From UHGV virus genome UHGV-1374310: DNA of 8,433 nt. One strand, written 5' to 3'. Of this stretch, positions 776 through 8,433 are shown one piece after another (position 1 is the stretch's first letter; each line of letters starts with the position of its first letter). The position numbers and the translations under genes were made by a program. The stretch comes from a virus. The notes below the pieces were generated by a model that was not told where the DNA came from, ran no database searches, and saw only the letters and a program-made list of their open reading frames with translations.

Positions 776-817
776 GTGTTAGTAAGTCATCATTTTTGTA
801 ATTTTGAGGATTTATTC

Positions 818-1870
818 GTGATCGATTGGCTTACCGGGATTTTCCCTTGCACACACAAACCGCTTCCGGCGGGGAGTGTTGTCAGCGTTGATGCTGACGG
901 TGCAATTGAGTGGGAAACCGTTAAGCGACTGACTGTTCGCGGTTCGCATGAAGCAACGATGAAAGTACGATCGATAGGATCTAATGGCGAAGGTAAAGCG
1001 ACACATTTGTACATTGATGGTAATCCTTCCAAGTTTCTGCAGGGGCATTCTGTTGTTGGGTCGGATGATATACAAGGGCTCATGTTGACGGTCTATGCCA
1101 GGATTTTATCCTTATTGAATATTCCTCATGATTTAGCGTCTTATAAAGCCGTTATGGCAGGTCAGTATAAAATTTCACGTATTGACATTAATTACATGTA
1201 TTCATTATCTACGCTGGAAAATGTCAGATCATGGCTTTATGCCGCCGAATTTAAAGCTAAAACACGCCATGGTCGCGCATGTGGGAAAGGCGGTACAGTT
1301 TATTTAGGTAAAAACTCCCGTCGATGGAGTCTGAAATTTTATTCAAAATATGATGAACACGTTTCTGGTAAAAAAGGGCACCAGATAGCCGAAGAGTTTG
1401 TACGAGCCGGGTTACTGGACTGGACGAAAGATAAATTACGTATTGAATTAACATTAAGAACAACTGAGCTTATTGATTTAAATTTAACGCTTGGCGCTAA
1501 CTGGAATATGAAAACACCACGTCAATTATTCTCTGAATATGTAGGGAGAATAGAAATGAATCAGAATGCTATTTTAAGTGATGAAAAAATAACGAAACTG
1601 CCAAGAAAAATACAGTCAACTTATTTACTTTGGAAACAAGGGGCTAACATGAAAGAAATGTTACCTCATAACACTTTTTATCGCCATAGAAGAGAATTGC
1701 TTTCGTTCGGTATCGATATTAATTTCTATTGTGATTCACCAGACTCTAATAACGTTGTTCCGCTAATAAGAACGCTGGAAGCCAAGCCAGCGGAAATCCC
1801 CTTATGGATTTATGAGAAAGGTTTTATTTTCGATTACAACCGTATTTCGCACGCCAGTAGCTGGCATTAA
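818..1870 (+). CDS. gII: Replication initiation protein pII (rolling-circle nickase)
   Basis: Recalled M13 pII aligns: VIDWLTGIFPC vs MIDMLVLRLPF at the N-terminus, KFLQGHSVVG vs KVLQGHNVFG, SRIDINY vs SRIDATF, NNVVPLIR vs NNVVPLVR. Start set at GTG 818 (GAGGA at 806-810, 7 nt spacing); the track's GTG at 776 is an upstream extension. Confidence 0.9.
   Translation: MIDWLTGIFPCTHKPLPAGSVVSVDADGAIEWETVKRLTVRGSHEATMKVRSIGSNGEGKATHLYIDGNPSKFLQGHSVVGSDDIQGLMLTVYARILSLLNIPHDLASYKAVMAGQYKISRIDINYMYSLSTLENVRSWLYAAEFKAKTRHGRACGKGGTVYLGKNSRRWSLKFYSKYDEHVSGKKGHQIAEEFVRAGLLDWTKDKLRIELTLRTTELIDLNLTLGANWNMKTPRQLFSEYVGRIEMNQNAILSDEKITKLPRKIQSTYLLWKQGANMKEMLPHNTFYRHRRELLSFGIDINFYCDSPDSNNVVPLIRTLEAKPAEIPLWIYEKGFIFDYNRISHASSWH
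1508..1870 (+). CDS. gX: pX, in-frame internal initiation product of gII (predicted by analogy with Ff)
   Basis: Internal ATG at 1508 gives a 120-aa C-terminal product; the NNVVPL motif falls at about the same distance from this Met as in M13 pX (111 aa). No strong SD; call is by analogy. Confidence 0.45.
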   Translation: MKTPRQLFSEYVGRIEMNQNAILSDEKITKLPRKIQSTYLLWKQGANMKEMLPHNTFYRHRRELLSFGIDINFYCDSPDSNNVVPLIRTLEAKPAEIPLWIYEKGFIFDYNRISHASSWH

Positions 1871-1881
1871 AGGAAAGTAAT

Positions 1882-2199
1882 ATGTCTAATTATGGTCTTT
1901 TCGTTAAGGGTAAAATGTTGGGAGCCCGCCAACGTAATAAAGTTAATGGTCAGGGCTATTATAATGAAATTGGTATTGGCCTTGAAATACCTGATGGTTT
2001 TGGTGGTACAAAGCAGGATCAAATTATTATTCGAGTTTCTCAGGCTCTCGTTAACGCAGGTCTAATGAACCAGGCGAATGCTTTCATTGGGAAATTAGTT
2101 CAAATTCCTGTCTATGTCCGTGCGTGGTCAATGGAGGGTAGGGAAGGTGTAACTTATAATGTTGCTTCCGATGGTGGCATCGCAGAGATCAAAGGTTAA
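1882..2199 (+). CDS. gV: Single-stranded DNA-binding protein (gV-like, divergent, 105 aa)
   Basis: Position directly after gII with SD AGGAA (1871-1875). Only a short stretch ARQRNKVNGQGYYNEIGIGLE resembles the DNA-binding region of M13 pV (TRSGVSRQGKPYSLNEQLCYVDL) and Pf3 SSB; the rest is not recognisably alignable by eye. Confidence 0.65.
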   Translation: MSNYGLFVKGKMLGARQRNKVNGQGYYNEIGIGLEIPDGFGGTKQDQIIIRVSQALVNAGLMNQANAFIGKLVQIPVYVRAWSMEGREGVTYNVASDGGIAEIKG

Positions 2200-2201
2200 A
2201 T

Positions 2202-2288
2202 ATGGACGATGTTATTCAAATTTTGATAGCGTCTGGCATCGTTATTTCTTTTGGCCTCGGCGCGATTACTGCGGGGGTCTTTCGTTAA
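2202..2288 (+). CDS. gVII: Minor coat protein pVII (28 aa)
   Basis: ATG 2 nt after the gV stop with SD AAAGG; translation MDDVIQILIASGIVISFGLGAITAGVFR resembles M13 pVII (MEQVADFDTIYQAMIQISVVLCFALGIIAGGQR) in size, hydrophobicity and C-terminus. Not in the ORF track because it is too short. Confidence 0.7.
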   Translation: MDDVIQILIASGIVISFGLGAITAGVFR

Positions 2289-2383
2289 TGTATATCGTTT
2301 ATTTCTTCGGGGCTTATACCTTTGGTTTTGCCCTTTTCTATGCGGTCGGTTCATTTAAATCATTTTCTGACCGATTAATGTAA
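2288..2383 (+). CDS. gIX: Minor coat protein pIX (31 aa)
   Basis: ATG overlaps the gVII stop (TAATG); translation MYIVYFFGAYTFGFALFYAVGSFKSFSDRLM matches M13 pIX in size and the ...RLM ending. The track's 2159-2383 ORF is an artefactual extension of this frame. Confidence 0.7.
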   Translation: MYIVYFFGAYTFGFALFYAVGSFKSFSDRLM

Positions 2384-2402
2384 CCTTAATGGAGTTATTC
2401 CT

Positions 2403-2645
2403 ATGAAAATTCTGTCTACTGTTAAATATAAAATTGCTCTGGCTTCAACTGCGCTTTTTATTTCTGCAAGTTCTTTTGCGGCTGAAGGCGCTACAGGTGG
2501 TACTGATTATGCAGGTCAGGCAATGGATGCTTTGTTGACTCAGGCAAATGATCTCATTGGTAAAGTATGGCCTGTTGTTGTTGCTGTGGTTGGCGCTGGG
2601 CTTGCCATTCGTATTTTCAAAAAATTCTCTTCAAAAGCGGTTTGA
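2403..2645 (+). CDS. gVIII: Major coat protein pVIII precursor (IKe-like)
   Basis: 26-aa signal peptide ending SFA then AEG; mature C-terminus ...[26 protein letters not shown] is close to the IKe coat C-terminus (...[11 protein letters not shown]) as recalled. SD GGAG at 2391-2394. Confidence 0.95.
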
Positions 2646-2655
2646 ATTTCACTCA

Positions 2656-2678
2656 GGGGCACTCGTTGCCCCTTTATT
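2656..2678 (+). terminator. Rho-independent terminator after gVIII
   Basis: Stem GGGGCA (2656-2661) / TGCCCC (2667-2672) with loop CTCGT, followed by TTTATT; same position as the strong terminator after gVIII in Ff phages. Confidence 0.7.
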
Positions 2679-2691
2679 AAAGCGGGTTACT

Positions 2692-3951
2692 ATGAGAAGG
2701 AAAATATTAATTCTTTCCGCTGTCCTCATTTCTCCTTTTTCACATGCTGAGTCATGGGAAAGCATTACTAAATCCACTTATCAAAGTTCTGCCTATGCTG
2801 AAAGTAAGCAAATAACCAATCAGGATGGCTCTAAGATAACGGTTTACTATATTGATGCTGCTATGCAGGCCTCCGCTTGTCAGGGTGCTAAATCCAGTGC
2901 TCAGAGTGTATTTACTCGGATTAAACCAACTTATGAGGGTATCTGGCCTGATTCTGAATTCCGTCTTGTTTTTACTGGCGATTGTACTTACAGCGATTCA
3001 CCAGGGCAGAAGGATAAATATTGGTCTTTAACGGCTTATATTGTTGGTAATATTCAGCGTTCTGTTCCTGATGAAAAACCTACTGACCCGACACCAGAAG
3101 AAATTTGTGAAGCGAAGCCGCCAGAAGAAGGTGTATTTAATAATGTTGATTCATATGATGGTGGTCGCTATATCTACTATAACGGCTGTGAATATGAGGC
3201 TACTGGTGTCATTGTTTGTCAGGGTGATGGTACTGTTTGCGCTGCAACATGGAAGCCTACAGGTGCTGTAGCTGACCCCTCTGATAAACCCTCAACCCCC
3301 CAAAATGGTGGTGGTGAGTCCGGTGGTGGTGAGTCCGGTGGTGGTGAGTCTGGCGGTGGTGAGTCCGGTGGCGGTAGTTCTGGCGGTAGTTCTGGCGGTA
3401 GTTCTGGCGGTGGCTCTAGTGGTTCCAGTCTTTCTAAAGGTGATATTCAGTCTGCGATCGAAGGTGCTTCACCCAAAATAGCCAGCGATATTCATGATAA
3501 ATTAACGGAGAAAGACACTTCATCAGATGATAAAAAAAATGCCGATGAACAAACCAGGAATAATATAAATCGTCTTGACGATTCCATTAACAATCTTACG
3601 CGGGGGGCTGGCCGTTTTGCTGACCCTTCAGGTGGTGATTCTCGTTATGGAAAGGGCGACTCTGAATTAGATGGCGCTTCTACTTTAGCTGATTCTGAAT
3701 TGGGAATTGAAAAGGATTCTCACGGTGCTTTATGGGAAGCATTTTTAAATAAAGGTGCTATGCTGCCTAATTTACCCAATGGTAACGGCTGCTCTGATTT
3801 TATTATTTTTCCCGGAGAGGTTTATCAGATTGATATTGGTTGCGATAAATTACTGACTATTAAAGATGTTCTTTCATGGGTTTTTTATTGCCTTACGTTC
3901 TGGTATGTCTTTACTTCTTTAACTTCATTGCTTCGCAAAGGGGGTGAGTGA
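2692..3951 (+). CDS. gIII: Minor coat / adsorption protein pIII
   Basis: Signal peptide [19 protein letters not shown]; internal motif [29 protein letters not shown] resembles the M13 N1 (TolA-binding) motif YEGCLWNATGVVVCTGDETQCYGTWVPIG; glycine-rich linker (GGGES x4 then SSGG units); C-terminal anchor [21 protein letters not shown]...[14 protein letters not shown] resembles the M13 pIII C-terminus. The track's start at 2548 is an N-terminal over-extension. Confidence 0.9.
3307..3429 (+). repeat. In-frame tandem repeats inside gIII (15-bp GGTGGTGGTGAGTCC units, then 12-bp GGCGGTAGTTCT units) encoding the Gly/Ser/Glu linker
   Basis: Directly visible near-identical tandem units with wobble-position variation. 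Confidence 0.85.
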
Positions 3952-4292
3952 TGCCTTTATTATTAGGTATTCCTGCATTGTTGCGTTTTCTTATTGGTCT
4001 TGTTCCTTTGTTTATTGGCTATGTGGCGGTTTTTTTAGCTCGACTTGCTACCAGAACAGGATTAATCGCCTTTGCATTGGTCGCATTAATTACAACAACT
4101 GTTACGCTTTTAATGCAGTACCTTGCTGAGGTCATGTATAACGGTTTACCTGCTGATTTCTCCCATTTAATGGCGTCTGTATTGCCTGACCATTTTCAGG
4201 CGTGTGTTAACGTTATTATGGTTACTCGTATCAGTGTTTTTGTTTTCGATTTAAAACAAAAATTTCTTGATTATGCAAACAGGGTGATTTAA
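3951..4292 (+). CDS. gVI: Minor coat protein pVI
   Basis: ATG overlaps the gIII stop (TGATG); [17 protein letters not shown]... vs M13 MPVLLGIPLLLRFLGFL...; C-terminal ...VFVFDLKQKF resembles M13 ...IFIFDVKQKI. Confidence 0.9.
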   Translation: MPLLLGIPALLRFLIGLVPLFIGYVAVFLARLATRTGLIAFALVALITTTVTLLMQYLAEVMYNGLPADFSHLMASVLPDHFQACVNVIMVTRISVFVFDLKQKFLDYANRVI

Positions 4293-5387
4293 ATGGCGGT
4301 TTATGTAGTAACAGGCAAATTAGGCTCAGGCAAGACACTTGTTAGTGTTTCCAGAATACAGGAAAGACTTGCTAAGGGTTGTCCTGTTGCCACTAATCTT
4401 GATCTTAAATTGCATAATATGCCTATGGTTGGGCGTTATGCGAAAAAAACGCGCGTTATTCGCATTCCTGACAAGCCTTCATTAAATGATTTACTTGCTA
4501 TTGGTATTGGGAATACATCTTACGATGAATCCCGTAATGGCCTCCTTGTACTTGATGAATGTGGTACTTGGTTTAATTCCCGCTCATGGGGTGATAAAGA
4601 CAGACAACCTGTTATTGACTGGTTTTTACATGCCAGAAAATTAGGCTGGGATATTATATTTTTGATTCAGGATATTTCGATAATGGATAAGCAAGCTCGT
4701 CTGGCGCTTGCTGAGCATGTTGTTTATTGTCGCCGTTCAGATAAATTAAACATTCCTTTTGTTGGCTCCATTATGAATTTGGTTTCAGGGGCGAGATTTT
4801 CTTTACCAAAGGTACACTTTGGCATTGTCAAATATGGTGATAATGTTAATTCAATCACTGTTGATAAATGGATATATACAGGAAAATCTCTTTATTCTGC
4901 TTACAATACCAAACAAGCGTTCACAGATAATTATCCTCATGGCGCATTTTCGCTTTTGCCACCATTTATCACGCACGGTCAATTTTCTGTTCACAGAGGA
5001 TTTAATTATTATATGCGCCTCACTAAAATTTATTTTCGCAAATCGAACCGTCTTATATTAATGCTTTCTTTTTTGGCGCTGGGGCTTGCGTTTGGTTTCT
5101 GGCTCCAGTCTGGAAAGAATGTTGATGAAATCTCAGCTATTAAATCTGCTTATGCTGAACAGGCGAGGGCGGTAACGCCTGATTCGTCCAGTGACTTACC
5201 CCGACTTTCTATTAATTCTTTTTCACAACTTGGCTTTGACGTTTCCGTTACGTTTGTTGATGCAAAAGGTATGAAATATCAGTATTTTGATTTGATTAAA
5301 GATGGTTATTCCGTTGATATTAAAGATGCCTGTCGTGTTGTTATTAGAAAAGGCCGTTATTTACAGACTGTTACCTGTCAGGAGTAA
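4293..5387 (+). CDS. gI: Assembly ATPase pI (Zot-like), Walker A GKLGSGKT
   Basis: Strong similarity to recalled M13 pI throughout (MAVYVVTGKLGSGKTLVSV..., LLVLDECGTWFN, IDWFLHARKLGWDIIFL, AEHVVYCRR). ATG follows the gVI stop directly. Confidence 0.95.
   Translation: MAVYVVTGKLGSGKTLVSVSRIQERLAKGCPVATNLDLKLHNMPMVGRYAKKTRVIRIPDKPSLNDLLAIGIGNTSYDESRNGLLVLDECGTWFNSRSWGDKDRQPVIDWFLHARKLGWDIIFLIQDISIMDKQARLALAEHVVYCRRSDKLNIPFVGSIMNLVSGARFSLPKVHFGIVKYGDNVNSITVDKWIYTGKSLYSAYNTKQAFTDNYPHGAFSLLPPFITHGQFSVHRGFNYYMRLTKIYFRKSNRLILMLSFLALGLAFGFWLQSGKNVDEISAIKSAYAEQARAVTPDSSSDLPRLSINSFSQLGFDVSVTFVDAKGMKYQYFDLIKDGYSVDIKDACRVVIRKGRYLQTVTCQE
5013..5387 (+). CDS. gXI: pXI, in-frame internal initiation product of gI (predicted)
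   Basis: Internal Met at codon 241 of pI (MRLTKIYFRK...), the same codon position as the M13 pXI start (MKLTKIYLKK...), just before the transmembrane segment. Confidence 0.5.
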   Translation: MRLTKIYFRKSNRLILMLSFLALGLAFGFWLQSGKNVDEISAIKSAYAEQARAVTPDSSSDLPRLSINSFSQLGFDVSVTFVDAKGMKYQYFDLIKDGYSVDIKDACRVVIRKGRYLQTVTCQE

Positions 5388-5394
5388 TATTATT

Positions 5395-6660
5395 ATGCGC
5401 TCTGTTATTGTTGCTTTTTTATTTGCCTGTTCATTCTGCGTTTCTGCTGAAACTGTTAATTTAAATAATTCATCTGTTCGCTCATTTGTTCAGCGGTATT
5501 CTTCAAAAACTGGCAAGCCTGTTATTGTTAATCCTGATATTAAAGGAAACGTAACCGTATTTAATGCTGATGTTAATCCAACAAATATTGATGATTTCTT
5601 TAAGTCTGTTCTGAATGCTAACGGTTTTGTCATGCTTTCTGGCAATCCTGCGGTAGTCTCTTTGCCGTCTAAATTACCTTCACAGATGGTTTCGGATTCC
5701 GATGATTCTGATAACCAGTCTTATGATACTTTTCCTTCTGAGCCATCTTACCAGCCAGTACCTGTGGCGCTTACGGTCAGAAATTTTAAGCTGACAAAAG
5801 TTAGATCGTCCGATGTTCAGCAACTGATTAAAATTTATCTTGATTCTAATGGTGGTGGTAATGTCGTGGATTATCCAGGCAATAACTCGCTGATTGTTTC
5901 TGCGCCTGACGAGCTGCTGCCGGTTCTGTCCGATTTTATCAATTCTGTGGATGTTGCCCGCGATCAGGTTCTCATTCAGTCGCTGATGTTTGAAACCAGC
6001 TTGTCTGATGGCGTTGATTTATCGTTTGCGGCAGGTTCTGCATCCGGTCATAAGGTTGCGGGGGGCTTTAATACTTCTGCACTGGGTAGCGCTCTTTCTA
6101 CGGCGGGCGGTTCTTTTGGTATTTTTGATGGTAACGTGTTGGCGCTGTCTCTGCGTGCTGTCCAGAGTAATTCACGCTCTAAGGTGATTTCAACGCCGCG
6201 TATTCTTACTCAGTCTGGTCAGACTGGTTACATTTCCGTAGGTAAGAATGTGCCGTTTATCACCGGAAAGGTAACGGGCGAATCTGCCGGGGTAAATAAT
6301 CCGTTTCAGACTATCGAGCGTCATGATGTTGGCGTTTCTCTCAAGGTAACGCCTGTTGTCATGGGTAACGGGCAACTAGTTCTGACTATCGACACTCGCG
6401 CTGATTCAATCAGCAATGATGATCAGGCATCCGATATTATTACTAATCAGCGCCAGATTCAGACGACAGTCCAGATTAAGGATGGTCAGACGTTGTTATT
6501 GGGGGGGCTTATCGATTCATCGTTCAGCAATGCCGAGCGTTCAGTTCCAGTTATAAGTAAAATTCCTCTTATAGGCTGGATTTTCAGTAGCAAGGCAGAC
6601 AGCAATGAACAGCGTATTATGTATATTTTGCTTACAGCACATATCATTCGTCCACTTTGA
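5395..6660 (+). CDS. gIV: Outer-membrane secretin pIV precursor
   Basis: Signal peptide MRSVIVAFLFACSFCVSA; extensive similarity to recalled M13 pIV (LDFSFAAGS, GGSFGIF, PRILT.SGQ.G.ISVG.NVPFITG.VTGESA.VNNPFQTIER, TNQR.I.TTV...DGQTLLLGGL, SKIPLIG). SD AGGAG at 5380-5384. The track's start at 5302 is an over-extension overlapping gI. Confidence 0.95.
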   Translation: MRSVIVAFLFACSFCVSAETVNLNNSSVRSFVQRYSSKTGKPVIVNPDIKGNVTVFNADVNPTNIDDFFKSVLNANGFVMLSGNPAVVSLPSKLPSQMVSDSDDSDNQSYDTFPSEPSYQPVPVALTVRNFKLTKVRSSDVQQLIKIYLDSNGGGNVVDYPGNNSLIVSAPDELLPVLSDFINSVDVARDQVLIQSLMFETSLSDGVDLSFAAGSASGHKVAGGFNTSALGSALSTAGGSFGIFDGNVLALSLRAVQSNSRSKVISTPRILTQSGQTGYISVGKNVPFITGKVTGESAGVNNPFQTIERHDVGVSLKVTPVVMGNGQLVLTIDTRADSISNDDQASDIITNQRQIQTTVQIKDGQTLLLGGLIDSSFSNAERSVPVISKIPLIGWIFSSKADSNEQRIMYILLTAHIIRPL

Positions 6661-7155: not shown

Positions 7156-7389
7156 ATGCAATTTTTCACATCCAGCGATACTGTAATGTTATGTGCGAAG
7201 ACCTGCGATCGCTGTGGTCGCCATGCGAAGACGGTGGTAGATGACATTGAGTTCAATGAGTTTCTGTCTGTTAATCACTTAGCTGGATACGGTTCAATTT
7301 TTGGTGACAGTAATCGCTTAAAACTGGATTTATGCCAACATTGCCTGAAAGACGTCCTGGGCCAGTGGATTACGGTCTGTGACCAATGA
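7156..7389 (+). CDS. Hypothetical small zinc-ribbon protein (77 aa; CxxC...CxxC), accessory/cargo gene
   Basis: Strong SD GAGGAG 6 nt before the ATG; Cys pairs CDRC (near the N-terminus) and CQHC (near the C-terminus). Confidence 0.6.
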   Translation: MQFFTSSDTVMLCAKTCDRCGRHAKTVVDDIEFNEFLSVNHLAGYGSIFGDSNRLKLDLCQHCLKDVLGQWITVCDQ

Positions 7390-7427
7390 CGGCACCGGTA
7401 ACGCCAGTTCCCGCCATCCTTACCATT

Positions 7428-7460
7428 GGTGCGCATAATGTAGGACTCGTTATGTTGAAA
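7428..7460 (+). other. dif-like XerC/XerD recombination site with an extended 11-bp central region (candidate attP half-site 1)
   Basis: GGTGCGCATAA-TGTAGGACTCG-TTATGTTGAAA versus recalled E. coli dif GGTGCGCATAA-TGTATA-TTATGTTAAAT: XerC arm 11/11 plus the next 4 nt identical, XerD arm 9/11. Confidence 0.6.
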
Positions 7461-7494
7461 AGGCCGCTGCGAAAATCGAATCCCGCAGCGGCCT
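7461..7494. terminator. 11-bp-stem hairpin between the two dif-like sites; likely bidirectional terminator for the convergent gene blocks and apex of the putative attP fold
   Basis: AGGCCGCTGCG (7461-7471) and CGCAGCGGCCT (7484-7494) are exact reverse complements with a 12-nt loop; on the minus-strand transcript the stem is followed by UUUUCAACAUAAC. Lies between convergent genes ending at 7389 and 7537. Confidence 0.6.
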
Positions 7495-7521
7495 CTTTAG
7501 CATAACGTCATTGTGCGAACC
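7495..7521 (-). other. Second, inverted dif-like site (candidate attP half-site 2)
   Basis: Reverse complement of 7495-7521 reads GGTTCGCACAA-TGACG-TTATGCTAAAG: XerC-like arm 9/11 and XerD-like arm 9/11 to recalled dif, 5-nt centre; opposite orientation to site 1. Confidence 0.5.
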
Positions 7522-7536
7522 AAAATCTTTTAGATT

Positions 7537-7728
7537 TTATTTTCCGCAAGCAGGGCAGACGTTTGCATCACCAAATTGCATTGTAGTGCTTTTATTCACA
7601 CTAAAACTTTCGAATCCTTCACGTAAGGATTTTTTTTCACCATTAAAAAGATATGTTGTAAATTCTTTTTTCTCCGCATCAGTCAATTGAAGCCAGAGAG
7701 CTTTGACTTGATCTACTTTATAACTCAT
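7537..7728 (-). CDS. Hypothetical small protein (about 63 aa) ending in CPACGK; second gene of a minus-strand accessory pair
   Basis: Start chosen at the internal ATG (MSYKVDQVK...) because AAGGAG sits 6 nt upstream and overlaps the stop of the preceding gene; the track's longer form from 7770 would overlap that gene by 31 nt. Confidence 0.5.
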   Translation of the reverse strand: MSYKVDQVKALWLQLTDAEKKEFTTYLFNGEKKSLREGFESFSVNKSTTMQFGDANVCPACGK

Positions 7729-7739
7729 TTGTTTCTCCT

Positions 7740-8315
7740 TTATTTCACGAGATTGCCACAATTTGTGCAACCTTTCCGCTTGTTAAATTTAGTCGGTATT
7801 TTATTGCAACGTACGCATTCTTTATTTTTCTTTACCAGAATGTCGAACATAATCCGTTTCTTATCATTATTGCTAACATATTTTTCATCTTCCTTGGCAT
7901 TGAAGTCATCTTTTGATTTTATCACTGAAAACAAATGGTTAGCGGGTTGCTGGTTGCCTGTCTTTGATTTAAACATGCTCGACAGTTCGCCATACAAATC
8001 AGTTAGGAGTTTATTGAAAGAGTATGATTCCAGATATCGAGATAAATTTTCATCAGTCTTCATGACCAGCGTGTATAAATTAGAAAGCAAGACTATCACT
8101 GATAATATCCCTGTGCCCCAAACTAAAAAATCAAAATATTTGGAGCTGTGATCAACCGATGCGTATCCTCCAACTAGGACAGGGAGGGCAAATGATAGAT
8201 ATTGGTTTATTTTTAAAAGTCGTTCGCTTTTTTTGATTTTAGTTTTTAAGTAGTCAGCTGTTCCCTCTGCGTAAAATTTCCTGAGGTCCATTTCTTCATT
8301 CGGTTGCATACTCAT
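7740..8315 (-). CDS. Hypothetical 2-TM membrane protein with C-terminal C4 zinc ribbon (about 191 aa); candidate toxin, exclusion or defence effector
   Basis: ORF track 7740-8321 (GTG); I prefer the ATG at 8315 (AGGTG upstream). Two hydrophobic helices (LSFALPVLVGGYASV, LVWGTGILSVIVLLSNLYTLV), then a charged region ending CVRC...CTNC. Visibly AT-rich. The opposite-strand ORF 7687-8151 looks like a shadow. Confidence 0.6.
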   Translation of the reverse strand: MSMQPNEEMDLRKFYAEGTADYLKTKIKKSERLLKINQYLSFALPVLVGGYASVDHSSKYFDFLVWGTGILSVIVLLSNLYTLVMKTDENLSRYLESYSFNKLLTDLYGELSSMFKSKTGNQQPANHLFSVIKSKDDFNAKEDEKYVSNNDKKRIMFDILVKKNKECVRCNKIPTKFNKRKGCTNCGNLVK

Positions 8316-8433
8316 CTTCACCTTTCACAATATCAAACTAGCGCGGGCTGAAATTATAAAAAACCTGTAAATTCAAGTGATTGACATTCACCAATAATAT
8401 GAATTCCTTCTGTGCCACCAATAAAGCAGACCG

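What the first reader, a model, noticed from the sequence alone, without database searches (positions are those of the whole stretch)
7428..7521. CTXphi-style paired inverted dif-like sites around a stem-loop: candidate XerCD-dependent attP in an IKe-like enterobacterial inovirus
Site 1 (7428-7460) matches the recalled E. coli dif XerC arm 11/11 plus the next 4 nt, but has an 11-bp centre instead of 6 before a 9/11 XerD arm. Site 2 (7495-7521) is the same kind of site in inverted orientation, with 9/11 arms. Between them is a perfect 11-bp stem-loop. In single-stranded phage DNA the two sites could pair into a forked hairpin with a bulged centre, which is how CTXphi makes a functional XerCD substrate from two sites that are individually non-functional. 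No integrase is encoded in the window, consistent with reliance on host XerCD. Classical Ff/IKe phages are not known to integrate, so this would imply a lysogenic lifestyle for this phage.
Basis: partly seen in the sequence, partly recalled or inferred. Interest (0 to 1): 0.85.

Follow-up and report, generated by a model that had tools for sequence, protein, structure and literature searches.

The report
Known CTX-type attP of CUS-1/YpfΦ phage
The two inverted dif-like sites around a stem-loop are real and are the attachment site by which this filamentous phage inserts at the bacterial dif site using host XerCD, but this has already been described for the CUS-1/YpfΦ phage family to which the window belongs.

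Summary
Site 1 (7428-7460) is GGTGCGCATAA|TGTAGGACTCG|TTATGTTGAAA. An 11-bp stem with a 12-nt loop follows (7461-7494). Site 2 (7495-7521) is inverted and has a 5-nt centre. Only 3 of 300 shuffles give even one such site. The + strand folds into the predicted forked hairpin (-31.3 kcal/mol, z -7.9).

The window is one circular unit of an inovirus with no integrase. It is about 99% identical to prophages in 47 E. coli genomes that sit between hipA and dif. The crossover lies within the 15 nt shared with dif, consistent with exchange at the XerC-arm/centre border of site 1, and a perfect dif is regenerated at the far end. The unoccupied site is contiguous in 3,050 of 5,426 genomes.

The architecture is conserved in Rosenbergiella, Xenorhabdus (different stem sequence, still paired) and a Citrobacter phage. 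There is one compensatory change, and the top-strand centre always starts with TGT.

It is not new. Val 2005, as cited by Das 2011, Derbise & Carniel 2014 and Das 2014 already describe inverted XerC/XerD sites in CUS-1Φ/YpfΦ and class them as CTX-type IMEXs. XerCD dependence and ssDNA use remain inferred.

The most interesting side observations are a defence-gene cargo hotspot beside site 2 and relics of the module on about 480 plasmids.

The parts
7428..7438 (+). Site 1 XerC-binding arm, GGTGCGCATAA. The predicted XerC cleavage and strand-exchange point is between 7438 and 7439 on the + strand.
   Evidence: It matches E. coli dif 11/11. All prophage junctions place the crossover within 7428-7442.
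7439..7449 (+). Site 1 centre (top strand), TGTAGGACTCG, 11 nt. TGTA equals the first 4 nt of the dif centre. The terminal CG pairs with the bottom strand, and the middle is bulged.
   Evidence: In 12 variants the centre is 9-11 nt, always starts with TGT, has a freely varying middle, and its last 2 nt are paired (one compensatory CG/CG to CA/TG change).
7450..7460 (+). Site 1 XerD-binding arm, TTATGTTGAAA (9/11 against dif).
   Evidence: It is invariant in the enterobacterial copies. G at position 8 is shared with CTXφ attP1 TTATGTTGAGG.
7461..7494 (+). Spacer stem-loop: an 11-bp perfect GC-rich stem (7461-7471 with 7484-7494) and a 12-nt loop (7472-7483). It forms the tip of the forked hairpin. 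It may also act as a bidirectional terminator between the convergent gene sets (inferred).
   Evidence: In Xenorhabdus the stem has a different sequence but is fully paired over 12 bp. The consensus terminator scan did not flag it because the loop exceeds 8 nt.
7495..7521 (-). Site 2, inverted: GGTTCGCACAA|TGACG|TTATGCTAAAG on the minus strand, with a 5-nt centre. On the + strand it supplies the bottom strand of the folded attP(+).
   Evidence: It is conserved in all relatives. It stays inside the prophage at attL and is never the crossover point.
7156..7389 (+). Last + strand ORF (77 aa, unknown function) immediately upstream of attP. It matches the position of YPO2281 as described for YpfΦ.
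   Evidence: layout in PMC4266046. A 64%-identical homologue is kept in a Klebsiella plasmid mini-element.
7537..8321 (-). Variable cargo next to site 2: a 63-aa ORF (7537-7728) and a 193-aa TIGR04402 'mobilome CxxCx(11)CxxC' protein (7740-8321). This is the attL-adjacent accessory segment.
   Evidence: (1.1e-41). There is no PADLOC hit. The segment is replaced by unrelated genes in other copies.
776..6660 (+). Inovirus core: gII (776-1870), gV (1882-2199), gVIII (2403-2645), gIII (2692-3951), gVI-like DUF5455 (3948-4292), gI/Zot (4293-5387) and gIV secretin (5395-6660). There is no recombinase. These genes define the + strand as the packaged strand.
   Evidence: Pfam hits and RefSeq annotation of identical prophages. 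The strand assignment follows established Ff/CTXφ biology (inference).

Best explanation
Window 7428-7521 is the attachment region of a CUS-1/YpfΦ-lineage filamentous phage and works as a CTXφ-type attP(+). In the packaged (+) single strand, site 1 and the inverted site 2 base-pair. This creates one duplex XerC-binding arm and one duplex XerD-binding arm, separated by an asymmetric centre of 11 nt on the top strand and 5 nt on the bottom strand, of which 2 bp are paired at each end. Host XerC and XerD bind this structure and chromosomal dif. XerC cleaves the top strand between 7438 and 7439 and exchanges it with the dif top strand. The exchange is stabilised by TGTA of the phage centre pairing with the dif bottom strand, and by TG of the dif centre pairing with the phage bottom strand. 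The resulting pseudo-Holliday junction is resolved by replication. The product is a prophage of the form host XerC arm, phage centre, hairpin, site 2, phage genome, phage XerC arm, dif centre and XerD arm. A functional dif is therefore regenerated at the right end and can take a further copy, producing tandem arrays. In double-stranded form neither site (11-bp and 5-bp centres) should be a XerCD substrate, so integration should be irreversible and virions should arise by rolling-circle replication across tandem copies. What is shown here: the anatomy, the fold, the junction structure, the empty site, the tandem arrays and the conservation. What is inferred by analogy with CTXφ: XerCD binding and cleavage, XerC-only catalysis, ssDNA as the substrate, and irreversibility.
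For: The fold has the arms in register, z -7.9.

Junctions: in UM146, TUM13936, the contig L004, Rosenbergiella and Xenorhabdus the chromosomal left flank is followed by an XerC arm, the phage long centre, the hairpin and site 2. Phage DNA up to the site-1 XerC arm is followed by a perfect host dif.

Empty site: the flanks are contiguous over one dif in 3,050 of 5,426 E. coli genomes, with top hits in one piece at 98-99%. The locus lies next to hipBA.

Tandem arrays regenerate the full attP at copy junctions in C10, F11, Res13 and EC5502. An episomal 7.9-kb form exists in Salmonella. There is no integrase.

Conservation across 12 distinct variants: the arm-to-arm register is kept, the top centre always starts with TGT while its middle and length (9-11 nt) vary, and the pair next to the XerD arm changes CG/GC to CA/GT in Rosenbergiella/Izhakiella (compensatory). 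Xenorhabdus has a different 12-bp stem that is fully paired, with fold z -8.6. Rosenbergiella folds with z -7.05. In Xenorhabdus the bottom-strand centre (3'-AG) matches the host dif centre TC, whereas all others have 3'-AC with host TG. This is as the CTXφ compatibility rule predicts (PMC3089051).

The anatomy parallels CTXφ attP1 (12-nt centre) and attP2 (5-7 nt), inverted and lying between the last + strand gene and the minus-strand regulator.
Against: No experiment or direct evidence here shows that XerC/XerD act on this DNA or that the single strand is the substrate. Junction sequences alone cannot tell ssDNA integration from dsDNA integration at site 1. Covariation is thin: one compensatory pair in one clade plus one diverged homologue. 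Most copies are nearly identical, so conservation partly reflects recent common ancestry. The minus strand also folds well. The literature reports that superinfecting YpfΦ inserts between resident copies, which the classical CTX model does not predict. I could not compare the window directly with the deposited CUS-1 or Y. pestis CO92 sequences.
Confidence: 0.86

Rival explanations
1. VGJφ-type integration. The double-stranded replicative form recombines with dif through site 1 alone (XerC-first exchange, resolved by replication). Site 2 and the hairpin would serve another purpose.
For: The junction products are identical to those expected from a dsDNA XerC-first exchange at site 1. More distant pI relatives in Vibrio and Photobacterium carry single sites with 7-8-nt centres flanking the prophage, which is VGJ-like. 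The reported insertion of incoming YpfΦ at copy junctions could suggest that the double-stranded junction is recombinogenic.
Against: Site 1 has a 10-11-bp centre in every enterobacterial copy. Functional dsDNA Xer sites, including attP-VGJ, have 6-7 bp (PMC4246890). The review states that the analogous 12-bp attP1 of CTXφ is unsuitable as dsDNA. Site 2 is conserved, inverted and complementary in register in all relatives, including Xenorhabdus where the intervening stem sequence differs. A compensatory change links the two sites. In Xenorhabdus the site-2 centre, not the complement of site 1, matches the host dif centre.
Confidence: 0.07
2. The long imperfect hairpin is primarily a phage DNA-metabolism or expression signal: a packaging signal, a minus-strand origin as in the Ff intergenic region, or a bidirectional terminator. 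The dif-like arms would be relics of past recombination rather than an active attP.
For: The hairpin sits in the intergenic region downstream of gene IV, where Ff phages keep their packaging-signal hairpin (established Ff biology, recalled from general knowledge rather than tested here). The GC-rich stem lies between convergent gene sets and is followed by T-rich runs on both strands. The right-hand 72 nt persist next to cargo genes on plasmids that have no phage, as a terminator would.
Against: The arms match dif far beyond chance. The crossover in every prophage maps to the site-1 XerC arm. A perfect dif is regenerated. The TGT homology and the arm sequences are conserved while the loop and bulge drift. 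The consensus terminator scan did not call it. A dual role is not excluded, but it cannot replace the attP role.
Confidence: 0.03
3. The prophages entered the dif region by homologous recombination or another host pathway, and the dif-like sequences only provide a short homology patch of 15 nt.
For: The phage and dif share 15 identical nt (GGTGCGCATAATGTA). The YpfΦ literature invokes homologous recombination for changes in array copy number.
Against: 15 nt is far below the length for efficient RecA-dependent recombination (established knowledge). The same architecture and junction type recur in hosts with different dif and phage sequences, namely Xenorhabdus and Rosenbergiella. A XerD arm and an inverted partner site would be unnecessary for homologous recombination.
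Confidence: 0.02

Closest known systems
CUS-1Φ (E. coli O18:K1:H7) and YpfΦ (Yersinia pestis) filamentous prophages
   Same: It is an inovirus of about 8.4-8.7 kb with about 13 ORFs in two orientations. It is integrated at dif, often in tandem, with episomal forms. A dif is regenerated at the 3' end. It has a pair of XerC/XerD sites in inverted orientation. Two ORFs of unknown function lie next to attR, and a variable two-ORF segment lies next to attL (PMC4266046). The window is about 99% identical over about 7.5 kb to prophages of ExPEC strains UM146 and F11 at hipA-dif.
   Different: The attL-adjacent cargo is different here: a TIGR04402 CxxC protein plus a 63-aa ORF. One base of the bulged centre differs (G at 7443, against C in most copies). 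The g3p glycine-rich linker is 57 nt shorter than in strain C10. I made no direct alignment to the deposited CUS-1 or CO92 sequences.
CTXφ attP(+) of Vibrio cholerae (CTX-type IMEX)
   Same: Two inverted dif-like sites have a long centre (12 nt against 11 here) and a short centre (5-7 against 5). They lie between the last + strand gene and the minus-strand regulator and cargo. There is TGT homology to the dif centre next to the XerC arm, a G·T wobble at XerD-arm position 8, no integrase, tandem prophages, and a functional dif regenerated on one side.
   Different: The sites are 34 nt apart here, against about 90 nt, so the hairpin is about 94 nt rather than about 150 nt and has a single simple stem-loop tip. 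The arms match enterobacterial dif, not Vibrio dif. The phage core genes are not CTXφ-like at the nucleotide level. The mechanism is demonstrated biochemically for CTXφ and only inferred here.
UPΦ phages (dif-integrating Lineavirus-like inoviruses of Enterobacterales) and IKe/I2-2
   Same: They are enterobacterial inoviruses. UPΦ integrates at dif, has reverse-oriented accessory ORFs next to the dif copy, and shares gII/gV at over 85% with YpfΦ (PMC7307601). Strain F11 carries a third, structurally different inovirus that uses the same attP module in the same dif array.
   Different: IKe and I2-2 do not integrate. The window shares only about 190 nt of gene IV with IKe, at 79%. According to that paper UPΦ structural genes are less than 20-30% identical to YpfΦ.
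VGJφ-type and TLCφ-type IMEXs
   Same: They exploit host XerCD at dif and encode no integrase.
   Different: VGJ-type uses one 29-bp site with a 7-bp centre as dsDNA and is reversible. TLC-type has a degenerate XerD arm and XerD-first catalysis. The window has neither: there is no 6-8-bp-centred site and both XerD arms are 9/11.

Membership tests
CTX-type IMEX (folded ssDNA attP(+)) | Two dif-like sites lie close together in inverted orientation on the phage genome. | tested here: met
   Site 1 is at 7428-7460 (+) and site 2 at 7495-7521 (-), 34 nt apart. Only 3 of 300 shuffles give any site.
CTX-type IMEX (folded ssDNA attP(+)) | Neither site alone has a canonical 6-bp centre, so the dsDNA form should be non-functional. 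| tested here: met
   The centres are 11 nt and 5 nt, and 9-11 and 5-6 nt in relatives. Functional incompetence of the dsDNA form is inferred from the CTXφ literature and was not assayed.
CTX-type IMEX (folded ssDNA attP(+)) | The (+) strand folds so that the two sites pair arm to arm, giving one XerC and one XerD duplex arm with a bulged centre. | tested here: met
   The fold is -31.3 kcal/mol, z -7.9, with the arms in register. The same holds in Xenorhabdus (z -8.6) and Rosenbergiella (z -7.05).
CTX-type IMEX (folded ssDNA attP(+)) | Bases next to the XerC arm can pair with the host dif centre to stabilise strand exchange. | tested here: met
   The top centre starts with TGT(A), matching the dif centre TGTATA, in all 12 variants. 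The bottom strand is 3'-AC opposite dif TG, and in Xenorhabdus 3'-AG opposite host dif TC. The rule is from PMC3089051.
CTX-type IMEX (folded ssDNA attP(+)) | Integration occurs at host dif, with the crossover at the XerC-arm/centre border, dif regenerated on one side, and both attP half-sites left together on the other. | tested here: met
   See (three host genera) and the empty-site test.
CTX-type IMEX (folded ssDNA attP(+)) | There is no element-encoded recombinase. | tested here: met
   Pfam and NCBIfam scans of all ORFs find only inovirus genes and cargo. RefSeq annotation of identical prophages agrees.
CTX-type IMEX (folded ssDNA attP(+)) | Integration requires XerC and XerD, needs only XerC catalysis, and uses ssDNA as substrate. 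| not testable with these tools
   This needs genetics or biochemistry. The papers I could read present it as proposed by analogy for YpfΦ/CUS-1.
CTX-type IMEX (folded ssDNA attP(+)) | Prophages occur in tandem arrays, which are needed to regenerate phage genomes by rolling-circle replication. | tested here: met
   Tandem copies with a full attP at the junctions occur in C10, F11, Res13 and EC5502. Virion production from the arrays was not tested.
CUS-1Φ / YpfΦ lineage | About 99% nucleotide identity over the roughly 7.1-kb core. | tested here: inconclusive
   The window is 98.4-99.4% identical over about 7.5 kb to E. coli prophages including ExPEC UM146 and F11. The deposited CUS-1 and Y. pestis CO92 sequences are not in the searchable collections, and Gonzalez 2002 is not held.
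CUS-1Φ / YpfΦ lineage | Layout: regulator and variable ORFs on the minus strand next to attL, the gII-to-gIV core on the plus strand, two unknown ORFs next to attR, integrated at dif. | tested here: met
   See, compared with the description in PMC4266046.
VGJ-type IMEX | A single dif-like attP with a centre of about 7 bp that is usable as dsDNA. | tested here: not met
   No site with a 6-8-nt centre exists in the window.
TLC-type IMEX | A degenerate XerD arm with a dif-identical XerC arm and centre. | tested here: not met
   Both XerD arms are 9/11, and the centre is 11 nt, not dif-identical.

The most novel reading that the evidence does not exclude
The attP module is more than an integration site. 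Its site-2/hairpin side may mark a cargo-exchange junction shared between different inovirus lineages and conjugative plasmids. At least 20 unrelated first genes, including AbiJ-like, Fic/Doc, Shedu and TIR-effector defence genes, end 1-15 nt from site 2. About 480 plasmids keep just window 7451-7522 beside such cargo, with homology starting at the centre/XerD-arm border of site 1. This could mean that Xer-mediated (XerD-side) or hairpin-mediated exchange moves defence cargo between phages and plasmids, rather than simple decay or homologous recombination.
Probability: 0.12. Interest if true: 0.6.

Novelty: already known. Interest (0 to 1): 0.2.

Why it matters
The feature explains how an integrase-less filamentous phage becomes a stable, often tandem, prophage at the chromosome terminus of E. 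coli, Salmonella, Yersinia and their relatives. This lineage has been linked to ExPEC and plague fitness (PMC4266046). Because it is already described, this analysis mainly confirms it independently, using natural junctions, an empty-site test and cross-genus conservation. That adds sequence-level support to a mechanism which, for this family, still rests on analogy with CTXφ. The practical by-products are a clear prediction of the XerC cleavage point (7438/7439), a set of natural attP variants for mutational tests, and the observation that the slot beside site 2 is a hotspot for anti-phage defence cargo.

Tried and rejected
- A megablast of the window against the phage collection found only short gene IV matches to IKe and Erwinia PEar phages. 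That collection gave no full-length relative.
- A full-text search for the arm and centre sequences as strings returned only unrelated primer hits.
- Gonzalez et al. 2002 (the CUS-1 paper) is not held, so I made no direct comparison with the published CUS-1 description of the site.
- An exact-protein cluster look-up showed wide distribution in Enterobacterales but gave no CUS-1, Ypf or Yersinia name.
- My loose scan for paired inverted XerD arms in the 45-60%-identity pI relatives (Halomonadaceae, Marinomonas and others) was too noisy to interpret. I therefore make no claim about attP type in those, except that some Vibrio and Photobacterium loci show single 7-8-nt-centre sites.
- The MAFFT alignment A1 put the Xenorhabdus stem out of register. 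I made the pair counts with a hand-parsed table instead of the count of structure pairs.
- The consensus terminator scan did not flag the hairpin because its loop exceeds 8 nt, so the terminator role is only inference.
- The near-complete copy on a 385-kb 'plasmid' (H28) carries hipBA and is a mislabelled chromosomal dif region, not a plasmid integration.
- PADLOC found nothing for the window's own cargo.

Full report
**1. Observation**

- Site 1 is GGTGCGCATAA|TGTAGGACTCG|TTATGTTGAAA. The XerC arm is 11/11 against E. coli dif, the centre is 11 nt and starts with TGTA as dif does, and the XerD arm is 9/11.
- Next come an 11-bp perfect stem (7461-7471 with 7484-7494) and a 12-nt loop.
- Site 2 at 7495-7521 is inverted. 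On the minus strand it reads GGTTCGCACAA|TGACG|TTATGCTAAAG, with both arms 9/11 and a 5-nt centre.

E. coli K-12 and Y. pestis CO92 have the same dif, GGTGCGCATAATGTATATTATGTTAAAT (PMC2731167). With up to 2 mismatches per arm and a spacer of 4-13 nt, 3 of 300 dinucleotide-preserving shuffles of the window contain any such site. The window has two, 34 nt apart and inverted.

Folded as DNA, the + strand 7415-7535 forms one long hairpin with the XerC arms paired, the XerD arms paired and the top-strand centre bulged (-31.3 kcal/mol, z = -7.9, 0 of 200 shuffles as stable). The minus strand folds slightly less well.

**2. What the window is**

The window encodes a complete inovirus gene set on the + strand: gII, gV, gVIII, gIII with a G3P pilus-binding domain, a DUF5455 gVI-like protein, gI/Zot and the gIV secretin. 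It encodes no recombinase.

It is 98.4-99.4% identical over about 7.5 kb to prophages in 47 complete E. coli genomes. In strain C10 the element is tandemly repeated with a unit of 8,490 bp. That equals the 8,433-bp window plus 57 nt in the glycine-rich linker of g3p, so the window is exactly one circular genome unit. A 7.9-kb episomal form exists in Salmonella. Only about 190 nt of gene IV resemble IKe, at 79%, so 'IKe-like' is a weak description.

**3. Integration products**

- In TUM13936, which has a single prophage, the chromosomal sequence after hipA runs into GGTGCGCATAA|TGTACGACTCG|TTATGTTGAAA, then the hairpin, site 2 and the prophage. At the other end, phage sequence identical to window ...7427 runs into GGTGCGCATAA|TGTATA|TTATGTTAAAT, a perfect dif, and then chromosome.
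- The same structure is seen in UM146, in a mis-binned E. coli contig (L004), in Rosenbergiella gaditana (pI 88% identical) and in Xenorhabdus sp. BG5 (pI 56% identical).
- The crossover therefore lies within the 15 nt shared by phage and dif. This is consistent with exchange at the XerC-arm/centre border of site 1.
- Joining the two TUM13936 flanks over a single dif gives a sequence that is contiguous in 3,050 of 5,426 E. coli genomes, with top hits in one piece at 98-99%. The prophage is thus a precise insertion at dif.
- Tandem arrays regenerate the complete attP at each copy junction (C10, F11, Res13, EC5502).

**4. Conservation**

I catalogued 12 distinct attP variants from chromosomes, episomes and viral contigs.
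- The arm-to-arm register is kept in all of them.
- The top-strand centre is 9-11 nt and always begins with TGT. Its middle varies freely (AGGACT, ACGACT, CAACG, CGACG, GCCACA, CCACGT and others).
- Its last two bases pair with the first two of the bottom centre. In Rosenbergiella and Izhakiella this pair changes from CG/GC to CA/GT, which is a compensatory change.
- The Xenorhabdus homologue has a spacer stem of entirely different sequence that is still fully paired over 12 bp (fold z -8.6). Rosenbergiella folds with z -7.05.
- Two G·T wobbles in the XerD-arm duplex, at positions 6 and 8, are conserved even in Xenorhabdus. The wobble at position 8 is also present in CTXφ, where attP1 is TTATGTTGAGG.
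- In Xenorhabdus the host dif centre is TCTATA and the phage bottom-strand centre next to the XerC arm is 3'-AG. In the other hosts dif is TGTATA and the phage bottom strand is 3'-AC. The folded-ssDNA model predicts this: the invading dif strand must pair with the strand supplied by site 2. A dsDNA site-1-only model does not predict it. This rests on one case.

**5. Mechanism**

The best explanation is a CTXφ-type attP(+). In CTXφ, attP1 has a 12-bp centre and attP2 a 5-7-bp centre. They are inverted and about 90 bp apart, between ctxB and rstR, and neither is usable as dsDNA. The folded (+) strand is recombined with dif by XerC-only catalysis, and the junction is resolved by replication, which makes integration irreversible (PMC4246890; PMC3089051).

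The window matches this layout feature for feature. It has a shorter, 34-nt spacer and enterobacterial arms. The position is equivalent, between the last + strand ORF (7156-7389) and the minus-strand cargo and regulator genes.

The anatomy, fold, junctions, empty site, arrays and conservation are shown here. XerCD action, ssDNA as the substrate and irreversibility are inferred.

The main rival is VGJ-type dsDNA integration through site 1 alone. Junction sequences do not exclude it. It is disfavoured by the 10-11-bp centre, by the conserved complementary site 2 and by the covariation.

A packaging-signal or terminator role for the hairpin may coexist with the attP role but cannot replace it. 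The terminator scan did not call the hairpin.

**6. Comparison with what is known**

This is not new.
- Das et al. [quoted passage not shown] 2005.
[quoted passage not shown] They also describe integration at dif with an intact dif reconstituted at the 3' end, tandem repeats, 99% identity to CUS-1 over 7.1 kb, two unknown ORFs next to attR and a variable pair of ORFs next to attL.
- Das 2014 lists YpfΦ and CUS-1Φ as CTX-type members.
- Bischerour et al. 2012 call them enterobacterial IMEXs related to CTXφ.

The window's layout, host locus and 99% identity to ExPEC prophages place it in this lineage. A direct alignment to the deposited sequences was not possible.

The only differences are the cargo next to site 2, here a TIGR04402 CxxCx(11)CxxC protein plus a 63-aa ORF, one base in the bulge, and the g3p linker length. 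In the papers I could read, the mechanism for this family is 'proposed' by analogy. I found no direct biochemical test.

**7. Side observations**

*Cargo hotspot.* The slot directly beside site 2 is highly variable. Among 36 distinct copies, at least 20 unrelated first genes end 1-15 nt from the site-2 XerC arm. They include an AbiJ_NTD4+DUF7014 protein, a Fic/Doc protein, a TIR effector of CAP12/Pycsar type and, on a Serratia plasmid, Shedu SduA.

*Relics on plasmids.* About 480 plasmids, mostly conjugative IncF, carry only window 7451-7522 next to such cargo. A Klebsiella plasmid has a 2.9-kb mini-element that keeps an orf77 homologue and is followed by a 6-bp-centred dif-like site.

*Shared module.* The same attP module is used by a structurally different inovirus in the F11 dif array and by a 10-kb Citrobacter replicon with a different Rep.

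These points are recorded as leads. They do not change the verdict on the finding.

**8. Verdict**

The feature is already known, so interest is low (0.2). The most novel reading not excluded is that the module's site-2 side is an active cargo-exchange junction between inoviruses and plasmids (probability about 0.12).

Noticed in passing
window 7524-8387 (cargo slot beside site 2); also L069, L070, L073, L076 and L078: The segment directly beside site 2 is a swap hotspot. At least 20 unrelated first genes end 1-15 nt from the site-2 XerC arm across 36 distinct copies. They include AbiJ_NTD4+DUF7014 (STM4504 family), Fic/Doc, Shedu SduA and a TIR (CAP12/Pycsar-type) effector. The window itself carries a TIGR04402 'mobilome CxxCx(11)CxxC' protein plus a 63-aa ORF, with no PADLOC hit.
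   Followed up: partly
window 7451-7522; plasmid loci L070 (4001-4071), L071 (4001-4092), L073 (4001-4091): About 480 plasmids, mostly conjugative IncF from E. coli but also Klebsiella, Salmonella, Serratia and Pantoea, carry the site-1 XerD arm, hairpin and site 2 at 86-98% identity without any phage structural genes. The module is always next to a minus-strand cargo gene. In L070 and L073 the homology starts at about the centre/XerD-arm border. L070 and L071 have a 6-bp-centred dif-like site about 2.7 kb downstream. L071 keeps a 64%-identical orf77 homologue. I did not resolve whether this is decay, one clonal event or Xer-mediated exchange.
   Followed up: partly
L075 13449-19544 (E. coli F11) and L072 1-4100 (Citrobacter pB72D): The same attP module serves other inoviruses. 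One is a third prophage in the F11 dif array with different structural genes (DUF2523, another Zot) but similar gII/gV, possibly UPΦ-like. The other is a 10.2-kb Citrobacter replicon with a different Rep, whose site 1 is AGTGCGCATAA|TGTGCCACACG|TTATGTTGAAA.
   Followed up: partly
L008 4677-4770 and 14178-14205 (Xenorhabdus sp. BG5): The host dif centre is TCTATA, and the phage bottom-strand centre next to the XerC arm is 3'-AG instead of the 3'-AC seen with TGTATA hosts. The site-2 strand therefore appears to track the host dif centre, as the CTXφ tropism rule predicts. This is a single case.
   Followed up: partly
L004 1378-4824: A further 3.4-kb element sits between the hipA-side flank and the prophage. 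It begins with a dif-like site, AGTGCGCATAA|TGTGTTGA|ACATGTTAAAT (8-nt centre). The 25 nt left of the prophage attL repeat the chromosomal left-of-dif flank. It may be another IMEX in the same array.
   Followed up: no
L107 (E. coli EC5502, NZ_CP092647.1 20000-69000): A very long tandem array of the prophage lies next to hipA: at least 5 copies in 40 kb, and 17 matching places in the chromosome. Many genes are frameshifted, which may reflect real decay or long-read assembly error.
   Followed up: no
window about 3300-3480 (g3p glycine-rich linker): The GGGES/GGSS repeat linker of the attachment protein varies in length between copies. It is 57 nt shorter here than in strain C10, and annotated g3p lengths range from 1203 to 1317 nt in other strains.
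   Followed up: no
L003, L004, L007 (genome contigs): Contigs with pI 98-100% identical to the window are filed under MAGs or isolates named Bacteroides, Candidatus Nanosynbacter and Paenibacillus. L004 carries the E. coli left-of-dif flank and a perfect E. coli dif, so these look like mis-binning or contamination. The E. coli 'plasmid' NZ_CP141085.1 likewise carries hipBA and is a chromosomal dif region.
   Followed up: partly
L034, L051, L052, L056 (Vibrio and Photobacterium relatives, pI 44-51% identical): These prophages are flanked by a canonical dif on one side and a single site with a 7-8-nt centre on the other, both on the strand opposite to the phage genes. This is a VGJ-like arrangement rather than a CTX-like one, so both attP types occur among pI relatives.
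   Followed up: no
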